Program-made: the position numbers and the translations under genes
In this document: one piece after another, positions 9,315-15,371 of the stretch
Position numbering within the stretch: the first letter of the stretch is position 1
Layout of the letters: the number at the start of each line of letters is the position of its first letter
IMG/VR virus record: IMGVR_UViG_3300027902_000035
Strand: one strand, 5' to 3'
From: a virus
DNA: 17,758 nt
The notes under the pieces: generated by a model
Seen by the model: the letters and a program-made list of their open reading frames with translations, nothing else
Told to the model about the DNA's origin: nothing
Database searches by the model: none

Positions 9315-9509
9315 TTAAAAACCTTCCCAGGCTGCAGCCAAATGAGCACGCACTGTCTCTTTGTCTTCTGAGTGCTTCCTGTTGTCACTATTTTCAGGAT
9401 TATCATTTGCCCAGTTGAAGAGGTTTTCGACCTTGTTTACAAAAGATAGTAGTTCTTTTTCAGATTTGAGTCGTTTAATCAATTCTGTTTTAGTCGTTTT
9501 CAATTTCAT
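9315..9509 (-). CDS. hypothetical protein, 64 aa (MKLKTTKTELIKRLKSEKELL...)
   Basis: The track ORF 9315..9560 begins at a TTG inside the upstream gene. An internal ATG at 9509 has a GGGAGG RBS, and its start overlaps the stop of gene 9509..9928 (TAATG). Confidence 0.5.
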   Translation of the reverse strand: MKLKTTKTELIKRLKSEKELLSFVNKVENLFNWANDNPENSDNRKHSEDKETVRAHLAAAWEGF

Positions 9510-9928
9510 TATGATCCTCCCTTCGTCATTGTGAAATCTAATAAATCGTATAAAAAGCAAATCTCTGCTTTTACGGCAAGATATAATTGACGATATCGTT
9601 CTGCAGTCATTATCGTATATTCAGTGCTAAAAGGATGACTGAGTTTAGAAGCGACTTTACTCCAAGGATTCTTTTGAGAATTGCATGATGATTTATTACC
9701 GAACTTAGTGATGGGACAGCTGGCACAATTAGTCGTACGATACTTGACGATAGGAGTATGTATAAGACATAATGGACAAGCTTTCCAATCAATTTCGATA
9801 TTGTACCATTCGTCTACAGGTATTTTTGCAGCGTAGTATAACATGACTAATTGTATATTTTGCCACCAATGTTCGATGCTTTCTTCTATGGCTTTAATGT
9901 TTTGTTGTTTTGTAATAGGTGAAGTCAT
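9509..9928 (-). CDS. Cys-rich HWWQNIQL-motif family protein, paralog A, 139 aa
   Basis: It shares about 55-60% identity (by eye) with the product of 10878..11303. The shared blocks are KAIEESIEHWWQNIQL, WKACPLC, CASCPIT, NPWSKVA and ICFLYDLLDF. It has CPLC...C..CP Cys pairs. Confidence 0.6.
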   Translation of the reverse strand: MTSPITKQQNIKAIEESIEHWWQNIQLVMLYYAAKIPVDEWYNIEIDWKACPLCLIHTPIVKYRTTNCASCPITKFGNKSSCNSQKNPWSKVASKLSHPFSTEYTIMTAERYRQLYLAVKAEICFLYDLLDFTMTKGGS

Positions 9929-10472: not shown

Positions 10473-10838
10473 TTATTTATCTGCTTCTGCAGTATTACCT
10501 GCTATTTCTTTTTTCATCTCATCGTCTAAAACAACTTCGCAATCAAATTGTTCTGAATTTTCATCATAATAAATAAGTGAATAACCATCATATGAGTCTG
10601 AATAACCCATTCCATTATGATACCATCCTTCTTGTACTAAACTCCAATAGGGTCCTACATAGTTATCGCCGCCACCACGACCGTTCGGATAAGACTTTGC
10701 TAATATTTCGCAAGCGACGATGTAATTTCTGAGTTCATCTGTTTCATCTACTAGGGTATCTCTTAAGTTCATTAAAAATGAATATCGTCTCGTGGAAGTC
10801 ATCGGCGTCACCTTCCATAGTTCTAATAGTGAGCTCAT
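10473..10838 (-). CDS. hypothetical protein, 121 aa (or 109 aa from ATG 10802)
   Basis: The first ATG at 10838 has no SD. The internal ATG at 10802 (MTSTRRY) is preceded by GGAAGGTGA with 5-nt spacing. It occupies the slot equivalent to 9315..9509 in the duplicated block but is unrelated in sequence. Confidence 0.45.
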   Translation of the reverse strand: MSSLLELWKVTPMTSTRRYSFLMNLRDTLVDETDELRNYIVACEILAKSYPNGRGGGDNYVGPYWSLVQEGWYHNGMGYSDSYDGYSLIYYDENSEQFDCEVVLDDEMKKEIAGNTAEADK

Positions 10839-10877
10839 ATAAATTTTTTTTCAATTCTAATTTTTTAGGCTTTTTTA

Positions 10878-11303
10878 TTATTTCCATGATTTTTCTTTTT
10901 GGATTCTCTTGATGATAGTTATTTTTTTTACGAAGTCTAGTAAGTCGTATAGGAAACATATTTCATTTTTCATGGCAAGATATAATTGATTATATTGTTG
11001 TATAGTTATAGGAAAGTAAGGAAAAGAGCTAAGTTCATCAGCTACTTTAGACCAGGGATTAGTCGAAGAGTCGCACATGCTGTTAAACTCGGTGATAGGG
11101 CAAATGCTGCAGGTAGTATGATGTTCCTTGTTAGTGTACAGGTGACATAATGGGCAAGTTTTCCAGCTTATTTCAATGTCGTGCCATTCGTGTCGTGGTA
11201 TTTTTGCCATGTAGTATAGCATAGTTAGTTGAATATTTTGCCACCAATGTTCGATGCTTTTTTCGATAGCCTTGACGTTTTGTTTTAGTGTGAGCCTGTT
11301 CAT
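10878..11303 (-). CDS. Cys-rich HWWQNIQL-motif family protein, paralog B, 141 aa
   Basis: Same evidence as paralog A. The conserved C-terminus (ggcaagatataattga at the DNA level) is also shared. Confidence 0.6.
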   Translation of the reverse strand: MNRLTLKQNVKAIEKSIEHWWQNIQLTMLYYMAKIPRHEWHDIEISWKTCPLCHLYTNKEHHTTCSICPITEFNSMCDSSTNPWSKVADELSSFPYFPITIQQYNQLYLAMKNEICFLYDLLDFVKKITIIKRIQKEKSWK

Positions 11304-11542
11304 ATTTTTCTGTCATGATTGTTAAGGTTATTTTTGTATTGGTCTTTTGCGACTTGTTGAGAACGGTCAATAAGATTAAATCTTTCTTTCGATAATTCAG
11401 TTAAGGGTATCGTTGGATTTTTGGGTATATCATATAGTGGCATCTCATATTTTTTTAAAGGAATACCAATCTTTATTAAATAATCAATAAAAGATGAAGG
11501 AACCGTTATTGTAAAAAATTTATATTTAAATTGTTTTTTCAT
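11300..11542 (-). CDS. hypothetical protein, 80 aa
   Basis: ATGA overlap at both ends (11300-11303 and 11539-11542). Confidence 0.4.
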   Translation of the reverse strand: MKKQFKYKFFTITVPSSFIDYLIKIGIPLKKYEMPLYDIPKNPTIPLTELSKERFNLIDRSQQVAKDQYKNNLNNHDRKI

Positions 11543-11868
11543 ATTCTACGCTGACTGCAAATTTTATCTGTACATTTTCCACTATGTTGAGAGACGCAAT
11601 TAGAGAAACACGTTTCATTTAACTTCTGTTTGATTTCTTTCATTTTTTTCTTTAGCATTTTAGAGTGTTTTGATTTGAAGACCATTGGAGTTAGCATAGG
11701 AGATTTTGTCTTCTTGAGATGTATCATGATGTCTGGAGAAAGTGAGAATCCGATCATGTCCTTTATTTCATATTCTTGTTTACCACAGAAGATCTGTATT
11801 TGTGCTTTTTTCCTGTCTTTTGAGTCTACTTCTTTGGTGAGGCAATCGATCAATTTTTTTACATTCAT
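11539..11868 (-). CDS. hypothetical basic protein, 109 aa, with a C-terminal Cys cluster (CFSNC...C..C)
   Basis: An AAGGA lies upstream. Coupled to the downstream gene. Confidence 0.45.
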   Translation of the reverse strand: MNVKKLIDCLTKEVDSKDRKKAQIQIFCGKQEYEIKDMIGFSLSPDIMIHLKKTKSPMLTPMVFKSKHSKMLKKKMKEIKQKLNETCFSNCVSQHSGKCTDKICSQRRI

Positions 11869-11881
11869 AAGTTTGATGTCC

Positions 11882-12196
11882 TTATTTTACTTTGAATTTT
11901 TTGAATAAGTTTATATTTGCGAGGACTTTATCGATGTCTTTTTGAATGTCCCACCAACAGATCATGAACATCCGTGAGTCCTTCGTCACTCCGAGGATGA
12001 CAGGGTCGAGCTTGAAATTGGGTGAGTAAGATCTTCGTTCGATCTTGAATTGAGGATGCGCAATCGTAAAGGCTTCAATATCGGAATGCTCGAACATAAT
12101 AACAAATTGTCTCTGAGTGACATCGTAAGTAATTTTGATGTCTTTCTTTATCTTATTACTATATTCAAGGATATTTAAAATACGTTTTTTTGCCAT
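11882..12196 (-). CDS. hypothetical protein, 104 aa
   Basis: AGGA 7 nt upstream. It starts about 20 bp downstream of the tRNA-like gene. Confidence 0.5.
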   Translation of the reverse strand: MAKKRILNILEYSNKIKKDIKITYDVTQRQFVIMFEHSDIEAFTIAHPQFKIERRSYSPNFKLDPVILGVTKDSRMFMICWWDIQKDIDKVLANINLFKKFKVK

Positions 12197-12215
12197 GAAG
12201 AATCCTGTGAAAATA

Positions 12216-12294
12216 TCAGCAGGGATGGATTCGAACCACCGACCCCTCTCATGTTTTGAGAGTGCTCTATTTGACCCAGCTGAGCTACCTGCTG
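12216..12294 (-). tRNA. tRNA-like gene with a tRNA-Val-like backbone and atypical anticodon loop (apparent anticodon AAC, no U33); CCA not encoded
   Basis: Minus-strand reading: CAGCAGG TA GCTC AGCTGGGTCAAATA GAGC A CTCTC AAAACAT GAGAG GGGTC GGTGG TTCGAAT CCATC CCTGCTG A. The acceptor stem is a perfect 7 bp (C1:G72). D-stem and T-arm (GGTTCGAATCC) are canonical. The D-loop is 14 nt. Body similarity to the E. coli tRNA-Val sequence recalled from memory (TAGCTCAGCTGGG...GGGTCGGCGGTTCGATCC) is high. Confidence 0.55.
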
Positions 12295-12326
12295 TTAATA
12301 GATATAATCATGTAAAATAGCGTAGA

Positions 12327-12689
12327 CTATGTATTTTTAAACTTATTTGCTAATGTCTCTAATGTCTCCCAAAGTCCTTTCAAATATTCTTCGTATTTGC
12401 TGTCGACAATTGCGTTACACACGTCTAAATCTTTTTTATCAATGCCGACTAATGTATTAGCTAGTAAATTTTTAAAGAGGTCTCTAGCCGGAATCATCAG
12501 GTCGTTAGTCACAAATTCACGCGTTTTCTCTCTGTCTGAGTTGAAAGCTGTTTTAGATAATAAGTAGATGCTCAGTGCACTGCCGATAATAGAAAACATC
12601 TTGGTGAAAAACTCTTCAGTTCCTTCCGATAATTTTCCTCTAAATTCATCATCAAGTAATTCATCATTGAGAGCATCGATGAGGTTCAT
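12327..12689 (-). CDS. hypothetical protein, 120 aa
   Basis: A strong AAGGAG RBS lies 7 nt upstream of ATG 12689. Confidence 0.55.
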   Translation of the reverse strand: MNLIDALNDELLDDEFRGKLSEGTEEFFTKMFSIIGSALSIYLLSKTAFNSDREKTREFVTNDLMIPARDLFKNLLANTLVGIDKKDLDVCNAIVDSKYEEYLKGLWETLETLANKFKNT

Positions 12690-12891
12690 AAATGTCTCCT
12701 TTTAAATTTTCTTTTTGCTGTTGATCTTTTTGTTCAAAATATTCACAGATACATTTCATTTTAGCCGCAGTTATACTCATAGTCTCATGTAATTTTTGTA
12801 CACGCTCTAATGGAGCAATTTTTTTTGGTATTTTACTAACTATACCTATCAACAATTCAATACGTAAAATTCGATCTTCTAATGATAACAT
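12664..12891 (-). CDS. hypothetical protein, 75 aa
   Basis: Its ATG directly abuts the upstream stop (TAAATG). Its 3' end overlaps the next gene's RBS by 26 nt. Confidence 0.4.
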   Translation of the reverse strand: MLSLEDRILRIELLIGIVSKIPKKIAPLERVQKLHETMSITAAKMKCICEYFEQKDQQQKENLKGDIYEPHRCSQ

Positions 12892-13569
12892 TTATTTTTT
12901 CCAAGGCATTATGACTATTTCTTCTTTAGAGTCAGTGTCGTCCTTTTCTACAGCCGTTTCTCTCTCTTCTTCTGTTAGATCACGGAACAATTTACCATCA
13001 GACTTTCTAATATCAATCTCATTCTCGACTTCAAGATTGTCTTCATCATGCCAACGTTTAAGTCCGAAAAAACCCTCATCAATGTCACTTAATAATTTAT
13101 AAGGAAGCACGTCTGGCTCAGAAAAATCAAAGATCAGAATCTCATATGGACATGCCCAAACGCATCCTTCAACTGCTAATAATTTTCCTGAGGGTGATGG
13201 AGTCGCTGTTATCCAACAAAAGCCAGATCCTTTGAAGCCTTCTTCAGGGAAGTAAAATTTATACGTACCATCTGTGAGATTAACGATAGAGTAACCTTGA
13301 TAATCTTCTCCACACAGCATATATTTTTTGCCATTTGGATGATTTATCCACGTATGCCAAAAAGTAGAATAATTTCTTTTGATGTCTACAACGATATGAT
13401 TATCTGAAATTTGTGTTACAATACCTTGCGTATAATTCCAGCATCCTTTTTTTGTCTCATGACTTGAGACAGTCAGACGAAAGCCTTCAAATTCAGAAGA
13501 CTCAATCACCTTGCCTGATTTTTTGAAATATTTTTTTAGATGTTTTCGCTGTTTTGCGTATTTATCCAT
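12892..13569 (-). CDS. hypothetical protein, 225 aa, W/Y/G-rich with an acidic C-terminal tail
   Basis: AAAGGTGAT RBS. TGATATG junction with the upstream gene. Confidence 0.55.
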   Translation of the reverse strand: MDKYAKQRKHLKKYFKKSGKVIESSEFEGFRLTVSSHETKKGCWNYTQGIVTQISDNHIVVDIKRNYSTFWHTWINHPNGKKYMLCGEDYQGYSIVNLTDGTYKFYFPEEGFKGSGFCWITATPSPSGKLLAVEGCVWACPYEILIFDFSEPDVLPYKLLSDIDEGFFGLKRWHDEDNLEVENEIDIRKSDGKLFRDLTEEERETAVEKDDTDSKEEIVIMPWKK

Positions 13570-13570
13570 A

Positions 13571-13909
13571 TCACCTTTCAGACGGTTTTTTGATTATCGG
13601 AACGTAAGAAAATGAGATTGGGTATGGTATTCTTTTAATTGTAAACACAGCGGAGTCTTTTAGTTTAAGAGCTAACACTGGGACAGAATATTTAAGTAGT
13701 GGCATCAATCCCGTCCCTAATAGTAAGAAGCCGACGATTCTTTCTTCGACTTGATCTGACGGTGTGATGAATTCTATTCGAGATATAGCTATAGGTCTAG
13801 AAGTTTGAGCATTTAATATCAGACACACATCGCCGCTTTTTAAATATTCACGATCTGGTATGTCAAATACATTAGGAAAATCAAAAAGTCTGTCTAATGG
13901 AATGTCCAT
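13571..13909 (-). CDS. hypothetical protein, 112 aa
   Basis: ORF from the track. 12-bp gap to the upstream gene. Confidence 0.45.
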   Translation of the reverse strand: MDIPLDRLFDFPNVFDIPDREYLKSGDVCLILNAQTSRPIAISRIEFITPSDQVEERIVGFLLLGTGLMPLLKYSVPVLALKLKDSAVFTIKRIPYPISFSYVPIIKKPSER

Positions 13910-13921
13910 AGTGTCTTGTAG

Positions 13922-14344
13922 TCATTTTTTTAGTCGTGGATGTTGTTTGGTCAAGACTGTATTTAACTTTCTTTTGAGAGATCGGATTTGTTTACTGCGA
14001 TAGATAGCTTCGGCAACAGTATAACGTATATTATACTCATTTGAGTCCTCGTCCGGCGACCATGCCCCGCCGTGCGTGAAAAGCCAGTTTATGAAATCAT
14101 TACATTCATTAAGTAGGATTATATCTGCATTACGCGGAAGTTTGAGTTTTTGATTTTTTAACTTGAATTTTCCTAGTTGTGCAAGATGCCATGAAGCTAC
14201 AAGATACCACGTGTGTTTTTGGAGTTTAGTGAGTTCATCAAACGTATAGGGATGACGATCGAGGCCTTGTTTTTTACACCATATCGCTTGTTGTGGTTGT
14301 ACTACTCCGAATATCTTACGAGCTATCGACCGTATTTTCGTCAT
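13922..14344 (-). CDS. hypothetical protein, about 140 aa (ATG at 14344; the track start 14362 is GTG)
   Basis: Its ATG overlaps the stop of the Zn-finger gene (TGATG), a classic coupling junction. Confidence 0.5.
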   Translation of the reverse strand: MTKIRSIARKIFGVVQPQQAIWCKKQGLDRHPYTFDELTKLQKHTWYLVASWHLAQLGKFKLKNQKLKLPRNADIILLNECNDFINWLFTHGGAWSPDEDSNEYNIRYTVAEAIYRSKQIRSLKRKLNTVLTKQHPRLKK

Positions 14345-14529
14345 CAAGAGCAGCTTTTGCACAGGTCTTTACCTAGTTTACTCCAGCATGTGTGACACAT
14401 GGGTTTGTCACATTTTCTACACTCAAATATGTGGCCGGCACATAATCCAGCACCGCATTCAACACAGTGTGTCTTAATAGGAGCATTAACAGATTGTGGA
14501 CAAGAAATACAGTGTTCTATTTTTTCCAT
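14344..14529 (-). CDS. small multi-zinc-finger protein, 61 aa, with 11 Cys in CxxC pairs
   Basis: Sequence: MEKIEHCISCPQ...CVECGAGLCAGHIFECRKCDKPMCHTCWSK...CKSC. It has five CxxC pairs plus His, an interleaved treble-clef/B-box/RING-like arrangement. Confidence 0.55.
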   Translation of the reverse strand: MEKIEHCISCPQSVNAPIKTHCVECGAGLCAGHIFECRKCDKPMCHTCWSKLGKDLCKSCS

Positions 14530-14546
14530 TTTAATACCTCTAAAAT

Positions 14547-14717
14547 TTAATATGGAGTAATGGCACAGAACGCAGTGCTATGCATGCTACTACCGCATAT
14601 CTCACACGGCGGTTGTTTTGTTCTTCTACACATTTCGTTACAAGCATCTAATCTTTTATTGTCTGCTTCAAGTTCACGAATCAGATTTTCGGAAAGTGGA
14701 ACTTCTGTACTTGTCAT
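14547..14717 (-). CDS. small Cys-rich protein, about 56 aa (the track ORF extends to 14816, giving 89 aa)
   Basis: The C-terminal CNEMC-x8-CEIC-x8-C is Zn-ribbon-like. The internal ATG at 14717 has AAAGGG upstream and sits 27 bp past the upstream stop. The longer form would overlap the upstream gene by 73 bp. Confidence 0.4.
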   Translation of the reverse strand: MTSTEVPLSENLIRELEADNKRLDACNEMCRRTKQPPCEICGSSMHSTAFCAITPY

Positions 14718-15065: not shown

Positions 15066-15371
15066 TTATTTTAATAACATTATGGTGATAAAGCCAATTG
15101 ATATTCCAATAGTCTGTTGCAATGATATGGATTCTTTAAAAAATAATACGCTGACGACCAATAGTGATATGATATTGACGTCGACGATAAGCATCGATGC
15201 AATAGCGATATTTTTAAATTTAAAACTCCATGCGAGAAAAATCAATCCTAACAACCACGTTAAAATACCGAATAAACACCATCGTATATTCGATGATGAT
15301 AGCCATTTTTTCATCAAAATATCGCCTAATGTTAAAATAAGACCACTAATAATTGTAAGTGATAATCCCAT
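15066..15371 (-). CDS. small 4-TM membrane protein, SMR/DMT-superfamily-like, 101 aa
   Basis: It has four hydrophobic segments of about 20 aa, a size of about 100 aa, and a charged residue in TM1 (LTLGDILMKKW) placed like the EmrE E14 region. AGGA 6 nt upstream. The overlapping plus-strand ORF 15082..15381 has no RBS. Confidence 0.45.
   Translation of the reverse strand: MGLSLTIISGLILTLGDILMKKWLSSSNIRWCLFGILTWLLGLIFLAWSFKFKNIAIASMLIVDVNIISLLVVSVLFFKESISLQQTIGISIGFITIMLLK

What the first reader, a model, noticed from the sequence alone, without database searches (positions are those of the whole stretch)
12216..12294. Atypical tRNA-Val-like gene with no U33, anticodon AAC, an expanded D-loop and a C1:G72 acceptor pair
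The body is clearly a tRNA (perfect 7-bp acceptor, GCTC/GAGC D-stem, GGTTCGAATCC T-arm) and closely resembles bacterial tRNA-Val. The 7-nt anticodon loop reads AAAACAT, so the near-universal U33 is replaced by A. The apparent anticodon AAC is not used by bacterial Val tRNAs, which use UAC or GAC; A34 tRNAs are essentially Arg-ACG only. The D-loop is 14 nt. It could be a phage tRNA with unusual decoding, a tRNA-derived pseudogene, or an attachment/regulatory tRNA-like element. It sits alone in a 130-bp gap in the middle of the gene array.
Basis: seen in the sequence. Interest (0 to 1): 0.55.

Follow-up and report, generated by a model that had tools for sequence, protein, structure and literature searches.

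The report
Odd phage tRNA lacking U33
A well-folded but rule-breaking transfer RNA gene (valine anticodon AAC, adenine where the near-universal U33 should be, over-long D-loop) sits in an accessory block of an uncultured giant-phage-like genome; similar A33 "AAAC"-loop tRNAs turned up in other phages, but its function is untested.

Summary
Rfam's tRNA model scores it 40.9 bits (threshold 29), and it is the only RNA-family hit in the window. All 21 stem pairs and all canonical tertiary positions are intact. The anomalies are real: loop A32-A33-A34-A35-C36-A37-U38, a 14-nt D-loop, C1:G72 with A73, and no encoded CCA. ARAGORN misses it only because of the D-loop length.

The contig is phage-like. 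Its closest relative, a 416-kb viral contig, lacks a clean 3,871-bp block that contains the tRNA. I found no homologue of this tRNA anywhere.

The body is generic (closest to Phe and Arg tRNAs), yet it carries the full E. coli valine identity set. Two other viral lineages carry A33-A34 tRNAs. One, also with AAC, is far better conserved than its flanks.

A33 plus A34 plus C1:G72/A73 recalls the Streptomyces mistranslating tRNA-ProX family, but A15:A48, G21 and a ProRSx neighbour are absent.

Best reading (about 0.4): a processed, valine-accepting, non-canonical phage tRNA. Rivals are a non-decoding tRNA-like element and a recent pseudogene. The att-site idea is not supported.

The parts
12216..12294 (-). 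Whole tRNA-fold gene, 79 nt (nt 1 = 12294; discriminator A73 = 12216); no encoded CCA
   Evidence: Rfam RF00005 40.9 bits, E 8.8e-6; sequence read; relaxed ARAGORN calls Val(aac)
12288..12294 (-). Acceptor stem 5' strand CAGCAGG (C1)
   Evidence: Pairs perfectly (7/7 Watson-Crick) with 12217-12223
12217..12223 (-). Acceptor stem 3' strand CCUGCUG (G72 = 12217)
12268..12281 (-). 14-nt D-loop AGCUGGGUCAAAUA, with A14, G15, G18-G19 and A21 retained
   Evidence: cmscan alignment. The anticodon starts at position 40, against 33-37 in 92 reference tRNAs.
12269..12274 (-). UCAAAU, the extra nucleotides between G20 and A21 relative to the E. coli tRNA-Val D-loop AGCUGGGA
   Evidence: Comparison with valU. 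Deleting 3-6 nt here restores default ARAGORN detection. No viral tRNA matches TAGCTCAGCTGGG-N4-9-AGAGCA.
12246..12262 (-). Anticodon arm CUCUC-AAAACAU-GAGAG
   Evidence: Folding slightly prefers closing A32-U38 into a 6-bp stem with a 5-nt loop (-27.8 versus -26.6 kcal/mol for the whole cloverleaf).
12251..12257 (-). Anticodon loop: A32 (12257), A33 (12256), A34-A35-C36 (12255-12253, anticodon AAC), A37 (12252), U38 (12251)
   Evidence: Direct reading of + strand 12251-12257 = atgtttt
12224..12240 (-). T-arm GGUGG-UUCGAAU-CCAUC (canonical T-loop; G53-C61, U54-A58, U55, C56)
   Evidence: identical to the T-arm of the L017 A33 tRNA
12241..12245 (-). Variable loop GGGUC (G44, G45, G46, C48)
   Evidence: Supplies G45 (a minor Val determinant), G46, and C48 for the G15:C48 Levitt pair.
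12327..12689 (-). Upstream co-oriented ORF (120 aa, orphan); its stop codon lies 32 nt before tRNA nt 1
   Evidence: Only a self-hit among 5.8 billion proteins.
11882..12196 (-). Downstream co-oriented ORF (104 aa). Its ATG lies 19 nt after A73 and is preceded by AGGA. Only the C-terminal ~65 aa are homologous to relatives, which have a different upstream gene and no tRNA.
10838..14708 (.). 3,871-bp accessory block that contains the tRNA and is precisely absent from the 416-kb relative (L001)
   Evidence: blastn map; junction sequences

Best explanation
It is a genuine tRNA-fold gene carried in an accessory gene block of an uncultured giant-phage-like genome that infects a bacterium.

Most likely course of events:
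1. It is transcribed as part of the minus-strand gene array.
2. It is cut out by RNase P at the 5' end and by an RNase Z-type cleavage after A73 (U74 follows; no CCA is encoded).
3. It receives CCA.
4. It is charged with valine, because it has every known E. coli ValRS determinant: A35, C36, A73, G20, G45 and an all-Watson-Crick acceptor helix.
5. It works as a non-canonical, probably low-efficiency reader of GUU (possibly more GUN codons) through an unmodified A34.

The U33/N34 to A33/A34 loop and the bulged D-loop are tolerated or selected variations. A plausible advantage is insensitivity to host enzymes that recognise or cut U33-U34 in anticodon loops.

Shown: the fold, the intact tertiary positions, the identity nucleotides, co-orientation, the phage-like context, the existence of other conserved viral A33-AAC tRNAs, and published proof that A33/A34 tRNAs can be charged and can decode in E. 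coli.

Inferred: transcription, processing, valylation, decoding, lack of inosine formation, and any anti-nuclease benefit.
For: Fold:
- RF00005 scores 40.9 bits and is the only RNA hit.
- 21 of 21 stem pairs are intact.
- All canonical tertiary positions can be read directly from the sequence: U8-A14, G15-C48, G18G19/U55C56, U54-A58, G53-C61, A9/U12-A23, G10-C25-G45, C13-G22-G46, A26-G44, A21.
- The sequence is at most 76% identical to any typed tRNA compared, so the fold has been kept through long divergence.

Identity: the Val set A35/C36/A73 (major), G20/G45 (minor) plus a regular acceptor helix, as listed in PMC9976931, is fully present.

Context:
- The element is co-oriented in a tight gene array with Shine-Dalgarno sites.
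- It fits the phage-like contig.

Precedent that A33/A34 tRNAs function: tRNA-ProX members are aminoacylated and decode in E. coli (PMC10404621; PMC11415595).

Recurrence in phages:
- L018/L019 carry tRNA-Val(AAC) with A33 (50.5-53.6 bits).
- L017 carries a tRNA with A33 and anticodon AAU inside a 12-tRNA cluster.
- In the L018 lineage the tRNA is 87-92% identical between contigs whose flanks are 15-65% identical and whose neighbouring protein is 49% identical. That points to purifying selection on such a tRNA.

No inosine expected: the TadA motif is UACG (PMC10027721), and here the same positions read AAAC.
Against: - No homologue of this particular tRNA was found by six exact-pattern scans of viral, metagenome and genome collections (patterns validated), or through either flanking protein. 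So there is no conservation or covariation evidence for this copy.
- It is dispensable: a 93-98% identical relative lacks the whole block.
- It combines three deviations, and its model score (40.9 bits) is below the 45-65 bits of ordinary phage tRNAs seen here.
- Loss of U33 is expected to weaken the U-turn and decoding (PMC11415595).
- GUU is only the third most used Val codon in the window (47 of 228).
- In the sister lineage four contigs have a 6-nt loop (CAAACA). This suggests that normal triplet decoding may not be what selection preserves in such elements.
- The anti-nuclease benefit is pure inference. The host and its defences are unknown.
Confidence: 0.4

Rival explanations
1. Recently disabled tRNA gene (pseudogene). 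A phage tRNA picked up a U33 substitution and a 6-nt D-loop insertion and no longer works. The stems are intact only because the damage is recent.
For: - It is a singleton with no relatives.
- It lies in an accessory block missing from a near-identical relative.
- It lies at a mosaic junction where the downstream ORF has a replaced N-terminus.
- It has three anomalies at once, its score is low for a tRNA (40.9 bits), and default ARAGORN misses it.
- With only about 2-3 mutational events, their all falling in loops is not statistically remarkable (inference).
- Annotated phage genomes do contain pseudo-tRNAs, e.g. tRNA-Pseudo-GTG in EFDG1.
Against: - Every stem pair, every tertiary nucleotide, the T-loop and the complete Val identity set are intact, even though the sequence is at most 76% identical to any typed tRNA compared.
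- The same kind of loop (A33-A34-A35-C36-A37) is maintained under purifying selection in another phage lineage.
- A33/A34 tRNAs are proven functional in the ProX family.
Confidence: 0.28
2. Non-decoding tRNA-like element. The RNA keeps what RNase P, RNase Z, the CCA-adding enzyme and perhaps ValRS need, but it is not used on the ribosome. It would act as a processing or punctuation signal separating the upstream mRNA from the downstream ORF, or as a decoy or sponge for host tRNA-targeting defence enzymes.
For: - The acceptor/T-arm and elbow are perfect, whereas the two regions that matter less for processing (the anticodon loop and the variable pocket of the D-loop) are the deviant ones.
- Folding favours a closed 6-bp stem with a 5-nt AAACA loop.
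- The next ORF starts only 19 nt after A73.
- In the sister lineage the loop length varies between 7 and 6 nt while the body is conserved and its stems become better paired.
- Valylatable viral tRNA-like structures that do not decode are a known concept, e.g. TYMV TLS-Val (PMC9976931).
Against: - Retention of A35, C36, A37 and the full Val set is not needed for a mere processing signal.
- No second such element occurs in the other 100-240-nt gaps of the window.
- There is no direct evidence for any decoy target.
Confidence: 0.25
3. ProX-like deliberate mistranslator. The tRNA is charged with proline through C1:G72/A73/G15:C48 by the host ProRS or by a phage ProRS encoded elsewhere, and it inserts Pro at GUU valine codons.
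For: - It shares the four rarest hallmarks of tRNA-ProX: C1:G72, A73, A33 and A34.
- It also has the G15:C48 Pro determinant.
- E. coli ProRS charges ProX tRNAs that lack Pro anticodons.
- Huge phages often encode synthetases (general knowledge, not tested here).
Against: - A15:A48 and G21 are absent (G15:C48 and A21 here).
- None of the 37 window ORFs has an aaRS domain.
- G35, G36 and G37 are all missing, and a G36C change alone lowers E. coli ProRS charging 164-fold.
- The anticodon itself is the main ValRS determinant, so ValRS should win. ProX tRNAs, by contrast, lack the determinants of the synthetase matching their anticodon.
- C1:G72 is not Pro-specific among phage tRNAs: EFDG1 Arg-ACG and Ser-TGA also start with C1.
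- The organism and GC content are completely different.
Confidence: 0.05
4. Remnant of a tRNA attachment site left by integration of a mobile element.
For: The element lies inside a 3.9-kb block that is present or absent between close relatives.
Against: - The tRNA is complete, not a 3' fragment, and lies 1.4-2.4 kb from either edge of the block.
- The block edges carry no direct repeat, and there is no partial tRNA copy in the window or in L001.
- No integrase or recombinase domain is present.
- The exact 3' half is absent from 185,579 species genomes.
Confidence: 0.02

Closest known systems
tRNA-ProX family (tRNA-ProA/ProN/ProT) of Streptomyces and Kitasatospora, the deliberate mistranslators (Vargas-Rodriguez 2021, cited in PMC10404621; Schuntermann 2023, PMC10404621; review PMC11415595)
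   Same: A33 in place of U33. A34 outside tRNA-Arg. C1:G72 with A73. An anticodon that does not fit the acceptor-end identity. Automated tools would name it by the anticodon only. It is also the only described natural bacterial precedent, as far as my searches show, that A33/A34 tRNAs are charged and decode.
   Different: It has G15:C48 and A21 instead of A15:A48 and G21. The anticodon AAC (Val) is not among AGC/AUU/AGU. No ProRSx neighbour is present. It has a 14-nt D-loop. It sits in an AT-rich phage-like contig rather than a GC-rich actinomycete chromosome. It retains the full determinant set of the synthetase that matches its anticodon (ValRS), which ProX tRNAs do not. The three published 17-nt probe targets have no counterpart in the element by direct reading.
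Canonical bacterial tRNA-Val (UAC/GAC), e.g. E. coli valU
   Same: A35, C36, A37, A73, G20 and G45. The D-arm UAGCUCAGCUGGG...AGAGCA and the V-loop GGGUC are identical to valU. Class-I size.
   Different: It has A33 and A34 instead of U33 and U/G34. It has a 6-nt insert in the D-loop. It has C1:G72 instead of G1:C72. Overall it matches only 50-53 of 79 positions, less than its matches to Arg-ACG or phage Phe. No CCA is encoded.
Phage-encoded tRNAs with anticodon-loop substitutions, proposed to escape host anticodon nucleases (van den Berg 2023, PMC10264068; see also PMC11555353)
   Same: It is a phage-borne tRNA whose deviations are concentrated in the anticodon loop while the body is intact.
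   Different: The published cases keep U33 and normal anticodons, and they differ from a known host tRNA at known cleavage sites. Here the host, the host tRNA and any nuclease are unknown, and the change removes U33 itself and alters the wobble base.
Other viral A33-A34 tRNAs found here: L018/L019 (Val-AAC, loop CAAACAA), L020-L023 (6-nt loop CAAACA) and L017 (AAU, loop AAAAUAC)
   Same: They share A33-A34-A35 and A37 and a good tRNA body. They are co-oriented in phage gene arrays and encode no CCA. L017 has the identical T-arm.
   Different: The bodies are not homologous to the window element: the acceptor and anticodon stems are unrelated and the discriminators are U73 and C73. Their D-loops are normal at 8 nt. 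They come from different phage groups; the L018 lineage comes from ENA and Logan metagenome assemblies and has DUF6353 and Hydrolase_2 genes nearby.
Valylatable viral tRNA-like structures (e.g. TYMV TLS-Val)
   Same: It is a viral RNA with a tRNA shape and Val determinants (A35, C36) that need not decode.
   Different: TLSs are 3'-terminal pseudoknotted domains of plant RNA-virus genomes. This element is a free-standing canonical cloverleaf gene in a DNA phage-like contig.

Membership tests
tRNA (Rfam RF00005 / canonical cloverleaf) | Covariance-model score above the curated threshold over the full model | tested here: met
   40.9 bits against a gathering score of 29, model 1-71, E 8.8e-6
tRNA (Rfam RF00005 / canonical cloverleaf) | Four stems of 7/4/5/5 bp and the conserved tertiary nucleotides (U8, A14, G18G19, A21, G53, U54U55C56, A58, C61, R15:Y48) | tested here: met
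   21 of 21 pairs, one of them G.U; all listed nucleotides are present in the sequence
tRNA (Rfam RF00005 / canonical cloverleaf) | U33 preceding the anticodon in a 7-nt loop | tested here: not met
   The loop is 7 nt but position 33 is A (12256). In the baseline, 87 of 88 non-targeted tRNAs have U33.
tRNA (Rfam RF00005 / canonical cloverleaf) | D-loop within the usual 7-11 nt | tested here: not met
   14 nt. The anticodon starts at position 40, against 33-37 in 92 tRNAs. ARAGORN fails until at least 3 nt are removed.
Bacterial tRNA-Val | ValRS determinants A35, C36, A73 (major), G20 and G45 (minor), with a regular acceptor helix lacking G.U at pairs 3 and 4 (PMC9976931) | tested here: met
   All are present. 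G20 is assigned as the third G of GGG, as in the E. coli valU D-loop. Charging itself was not tested.
Bacterial tRNA-Val | Anticodon UAC or GAC | tested here: not met
   The anticodon is AAC
Bacterial tRNA-Val | Body more similar to Val tRNAs than to other isoacceptor types | tested here: not met
   Best matches are phage Phe-GAA (60/79) and E. coli Arg-ACG (59-60/79). Val tRNAs score 47-53/79.
tRNA-ProX (mistranslating Pro tRNAs) | C1:G72 pair and A73 | tested here: met
   C at 12294, G at 12217, A at 12216
tRNA-ProX (mistranslating Pro tRNAs) | A33 and A34 with a non-Pro anticodon | tested here: met
   A33-A34-A35-C36. However, AAC is not one of the described anticodons AGC/AUU/AGU.
tRNA-ProX (mistranslating Pro tRNAs) | A15:A48 tertiary pair | tested here: not met
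   G15 and C48, the ordinary Levitt pair
tRNA-ProX (mistranslating Pro tRNAs) | G21 (some ProT members have A21) | tested here: not met
   A21
tRNA-ProX (mistranslating Pro tRNAs) | Encoded next to a ProRSx (full-length or truncated ProRS isoform) | tested here: not met
   None of the 37 ORFs of the 17.7-kb contig has an aaRS domain by Pfam. The rest of the genome is unknown.
tRNA-ProX (mistranslating Pro tRNAs) | Lacks the determinants of the synthetase that matches its anticodon | tested here: not met
   It carries the complete Val determinant set
tRNA-ProX (mistranslating Pro tRNAs) | Sequence homology to S. turgidiscabies tRNA-ProA | not testable with these tools
   ProX sequences are not held. 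Only 17-nt probe sequences are available, and these have no match in the element by direct reading.
tRNA-gene attachment site of an integrative element | Duplicated tRNA 3' segment at the element borders, plus an integrase | tested here: not met
   There is no partial copy and no repeat at the block edges, and no integrase domain
Anticodon-nuclease-evading phage tRNAs (hypothesis of PMC10264068) | Loop differs from the host's cognate tRNA at the cleavage site of a host nuclease | not testable with these tools
   The host and its tRNAs and nucleases are unknown. The viral context is supported.

The most novel reading that the evidence does not exclude
Phages carry a previously unrecognised class of tRNAs in which U33-U34 is replaced by A33-A34, giving loops xAAAC(A)x or xAAAU(A)x. 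The window element, with its C1:G72/A73 acceptor end and extended D-loop, would be one member. These RNAs are maintained by selection. They would act either as nuclease-proof decoders that keep translation going when host defences cut U-containing anticodon loops, or as dual-identity (Pro/Val) mistranslators analogous to tRNA-ProX.
Probability: 0.12. Interest if true: 0.8.

Novelty: new variant of a known kind. Interest (0 to 1): 0.45.

Why it matters
U33 is one of the most conserved nucleotides in biology, and A34 outside tRNA-Arg is almost unknown in bacterial systems. As far as my searches show, the only described natural bacterial tRNAs that combine A33 and A34 are the tRNA-ProX mistranslators, and the role of their A33 is explicitly unexplained.

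Finding the same loop signature on intact tRNA bodies in several unrelated phage lineages suggests that the A33/A34 design may be a recurrent solution rather than a curiosity of Streptomyces. One of those lineages shows clear purifying selection.

If these RNAs work, they would bear on three questions:
- how phages keep translating under tRNA-targeted host defence
- how far the ribosome tolerates loss of the U-turn
- how many unusual tRNAs standard finders miss or mislabel

If the window copy is only a decaying gene, the matter is routine.

Tried and rejected
**Searches for homologues of this tRNA — all empty**
- Viral contigs.
- Metagenome contigs.
- 185,579 species genomes.
- The patterns were confirmed to match the window, so the null results are real, within the limits of exact matching.

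**Searches through neighbouring genes**
- Both flanking ORFs found nothing in IMG/VR.
- In the 5.8-billion-protein set, the downstream ORF has only two partial relatives, on short contigs without the tRNA.
- The upstream ORF has only a self-hit.

**Cultured phages**
- No megablast or blastn relative of the window.

**More distant neighbours**
- Homologues of the 225-aa neighbour in other huge-phage contigs (L002-L005) are too distant.
- The tRNA-Leu at a roughly similar position in L004 is on a high-GC contig and is unrelated.

**Readings considered and rejected**
- ARAGORN's intron-allowing parse, Leu(caa) with a 4-nt intron, gives a poor D-arm and a mismatched anticodon stem. Rejected as an artefact.
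- A mirror tRNA on the + strand would have the loop AUGUUUU, which has U33 and anticodon GUU. Rejected because Rfam hits only the minus strand, the D and T features would be swapped, and all genes are on the minus strand.
- A eukaryotic-virus origin, where Val-AAC is standard, was considered because of the major-vault-protein homologue. Rejected because of the operon-like overlaps and AGGAG ribosome-binding sites.

**Tests that did not discriminate**
- Thermodynamic folding cannot decide between the 5-bp/7-nt and 6-bp/5-nt forms; the difference is 1.2 kcal/mol.
- Covariation in the sister family is uninformative, with only 3 distinct sequences.

**Unavailable**
- The primary PNAS paper on tRNA-ProA and the ProX sequences could not be obtained.
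Full report
**1. What is there**

The 79 nt at 12216-12294 form a tRNA cloverleaf when read on the minus strand:

CAGCAGG-UA-GCUC-AGCUGGGUCAAAUA-GAGC-A-CUCUC-AAAACAU-GAGAG-GGGUC-GGUGG-UUCGAAU-CCAUC-CCUGCUG-A

- Rfam's tRNA model matches end to end at 40.9 bits (threshold 29, E = 8.8e-6). It is the only RNA-family match in the window, even at E <= 5.
- All 21 stem pairs form, with one G.U.
- Every nucleotide involved in the classical tertiary contacts is present in the sequence: U8-A14, G15-C48, G18G19 with U55C56, U54-A58, G53-C61, A9/U12-A23, G10-C25-G45, C13-G22-G46, A26-G44 and A21.
Position 33 is A, the anticodon is AAC, the D-loop is 14 nt, and pair 1:72 is C:G with A73.
- No CCA is encoded; U follows the discriminator.

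ARAGORN finds nothing at default settings. In-silico edits show the reason is the D-loop length. Removing 3 nt gives a default tRNA-Val(aac) call with A33 still in place, while A33U alone does not rescue detection.

Of the 88 that I had not fetched deliberately for their A33, 87 have U33.

Folding energies barely distinguish the alternatives:

| Structure | kcal/mol |
|---|---|
| Canonical cloverleaf, 5-bp stem / 7-nt loop | -26.6 |
| Cloverleaf with A32-U38 closed, 6-bp stem / 5-nt loop | -27.8 |
| Unconstrained optimum | -29.1 |

**2. Context**

- The window is a complete 17,758-bp JGI metagenome contig.
- All credible ORFs are on the minus strand, often with 4-nt overlaps. Several have AGGAG-type ribosome-binding sites. 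This is prokaryotic-virus organisation.
- Ten of ten ORFs tested have no PHROG match. Pfam recognises only an HD domain, weak EamA/SMR hits, and a major-vault-protein-like 821-aa protein.
- No synthetase, integrase or tRNA enzyme is encoded.
- The only close relative is a 416-kb IMG/VR contig, 93-98% identical where alignable. It lacks a clean 3,871-bp block (10838-14708) with the tRNA in its middle.
- The block edges carry no repeat, and there is no partial tRNA copy. So the attachment-site idea fails.
- The ORF just downstream (ATG 19 nt after A73) is conserved only in its C-terminal two thirds. In its relatives it follows a different gene and no tRNA.
- The ORF just upstream is an orphan.

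The tRNA is therefore accessory and sits at a mosaic junction.

**3. Relatives of the tRNA itself**

- Six exact-pattern scans found nothing in viral contigs, metagenome contigs or 185,579 species genomes.
- The scans left the D-loop and anticodon loop free in various ways, and the patterns were validated on the window.
- No viral tRNA with this D-arm has 4-9 extra D-loop nucleotides.

**4. What type of tRNA is it**

- By overall similarity the body is generic class I. The best typed matches are phage tRNA-Phe (60/79) and E. coli tRNA-Arg(ACG) (59-60/79). Val tRNAs reach 47-53/79.
- The D-arm and V-loop are identical to E. coli tRNA-Val(UAC), apart from a UCAAAU insert between G20 and A21.
- The element carries every determinant listed for E. 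coli ValRS (PMC9976931): A35, C36 and A73 as major elements, G20 and G45 as minor ones, and a regular acceptor helix.
- It also has the acceptor-end and core Pro determinants (C1:G72, A73, G15:C48). It lacks G35, G36 and G37.
- TadA edits A within UACG loops (PMC10027721). The same positions here read AAAC, so A34 probably stays unmodified. This is an inference.

**5. The A33/A34 precedent**

The literature search turned up the tRNA-ProX family of Streptomyces and Kitasatospora. These are Pro-identity tRNAs with anticodons AGC, AUU or AGU. Their 'unique' features are C1:G72, A73, A33, A34, A15:A48 and G21, and they are usually encoded next to a ProRS isoform. They are aminoacylated and decode in E. 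coli (PMC10404621; PMC11415595).

The window element shares four of these rare features. It fails on A15:A48, on G21, on the ProRSx neighbour, and on the property of lacking the anticodon-matched synthetase's determinants. It is therefore not a member. The family does prove, however, that an A33/A34 loop is compatible with charging and decoding.

**6. Other phage A33-A34 tRNAs**

A scan of viral contigs for tRNA frames with A33, A34 and A37 gave two hits. Both are good tRNAs.

- L018 has the loop CAAACAA, again anticodon AAC (53.6 bits; default ARAGORN calls it Val-aac).
- L017 has the loop AAAAUAC, anticodon AAU (49.8 bits). It lies inside a 12-tRNA cluster and has a T-arm identical to the window's.

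Through its neighbouring protein, the L018 tRNA was traced to five more contigs.

- A 98% relative (L019) keeps CAAACAA.
- Four contigs (L020-L023), whose neighbouring protein is only 49% identical, keep the same tRNA with a 6-nt loop, CAAACA.
- In those four contigs two mismatches seen in L018 are repaired: U27.U43 becomes C-G, and A5.C68 becomes A-U.
- The tRNA is 87-92% identical between these contigs, while the flanks are 15-65% identical.
- With only three distinct sequences there is no formal covariation. The contrast with the flanks nevertheless indicates purifying selection on a tRNA that lacks U33.

Relative to the loops of U34 isoacceptors (xUUACAx, xUUAUAx), all three lineages look like U33U34 changed to A33A34. 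Why this should be so is unexplained.

**7. Interpretation**

| Reading | Probability | Main basis |
|---|---|---|
| Processed, valine-accepting, non-canonical phage tRNA reading GUU (perhaps GUN) through unmodified A34 | about 0.40 | intact fold, full Val set, ProX precedent, conserved sister lineage |
| Recent pseudogene | about 0.28 | singleton, dispensable, three anomalies, modest score |
| Non-decoding tRNA-like element (processing signal or decoy) | about 0.25 | deviations confined to the loops irrelevant for RNase P/Z; variable loop length in the sister lineage; ORF start 19 nt downstream |
| ProX-like Val-to-Pro mistranslator | about 0.05 | shared hallmarks, but several defining features fail |
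| Attachment-site remnant | about 0.02 | effectively refuted |

For the favoured reading, the odd loop might be an adaptation against host enzymes that recognise U33/U34. That last point is speculation.

None of the functional steps (transcription, processing, charging, decoding) is shown. All are inferred from sequence and from published behaviour of related systems.

**8. Verdict**

This is a real, correctly described and unusual tRNA gene in a phage-like accessory block. It is a new variant of known kinds (phage tRNAs; A33/A34 non-canonical tRNAs). It gains moderate interest from the ProX parallel and from the recurrence of the loop type in other phages. It is limited by being a singleton with no expression or conservation evidence.

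Noticed in passing
window 2062-4527 (-): An 821-aa ORF is a co-linear homologue of eukaryotic major vault protein. Pfam hits are MVP_shoulder (6e-21) and Vault_3 (1.7e-9). PDB major vault protein chains match at E about 1e-11 to 1e-12, with residues ~461-687 aligning to ~460-692 of 861-893-aa chains. It is conserved at 93-97% in a 416-kb IMG/VR contig. A vault-like protein in a huge-phage-like genome may deserve its own look.
   Followed up: partly
L020 1561-1633; L021 2804-2876; L022 474-546; L023 462-534: A phage tRNA has a 6-nt anticodon loop, CAAACA (ARAGORN reports a 2-nt anticodon 'aa'; Rfam 57.1 bits). It is syntenic and 87-92% identical to the 7-nt-loop Val(AAC)/A33 tRNA of L018/L019, although the flanks have diverged to 15-65% identity.
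   Followed up: partly
L017 3124-3196 (+): A tRNA with loop AAAAUAC (A33, anticodon AAU, C73; the D-loop lacks GG) lies inside a cluster of 12 otherwise ordinary tRNAs on a 114.6-kb viral contig. Its T-arm is identical to that of the window element.
   Followed up: partly
L002 15662-15736 (-): A well-scoring tRNA (55.4 bits) with anticodon UUA, a potential UAA-reading suppressor, lies on a 529-kb IMG/VR contig that shares a distant homologue of the window's 225-aa ORF. This may indicate stop-codon recoding in that huge phage.
   Followed up: no
window 10838-14708: A 3,871-bp block of about ten small orphan ORFs plus the tRNA is a clean presence/absence difference from the 416-kb relative. It has no flanking repeat; the junction is ...gagctca|TATAAA...CTTCTGT|acttgtc....
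   Followed up: yes
window 10919-11273 and 9529-9900: Both segments align to the same stretch of L001 (6624-7004), at 69% and 95% identity respectively. ORF 10878-11303, at the start of the accessory block, therefore looks like a diverged paralogue of ORF 9509-9928.
   Followed up: no
window 7007-7621 (-) and 15066-15371 (-): A 204-aa HD-domain protein (PF01966, 5e-10) and a 101-aa small membrane protein with sub-threshold EamA/SMR hits. These are the only other ORFs of 37 with a Pfam signal at E < 0.001; one further ORF has a marginal IBD hit at E = 0.007. All ten ORFs tested against PHROGs had no match.
   Followed up: no
L017 8717-8764 and 14290-14338 (+): Two matches to the Rfam gut-2 RNA family (RF02990; 49.4 and 41.1 bits) lie downstream of the tRNA cluster on this viral contig.
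   Followed up: no
L004 11359-11431 (+): A tRNA-Leu(UAA) on a high-GC 251-kb viral contig has two non-standard pairs in its anticodon stem and one in its acceptor stem (Rfam 47.3 bits). It lies about 950 nt downstream of the 225-aa-ORF homologue.
   Followed up: no
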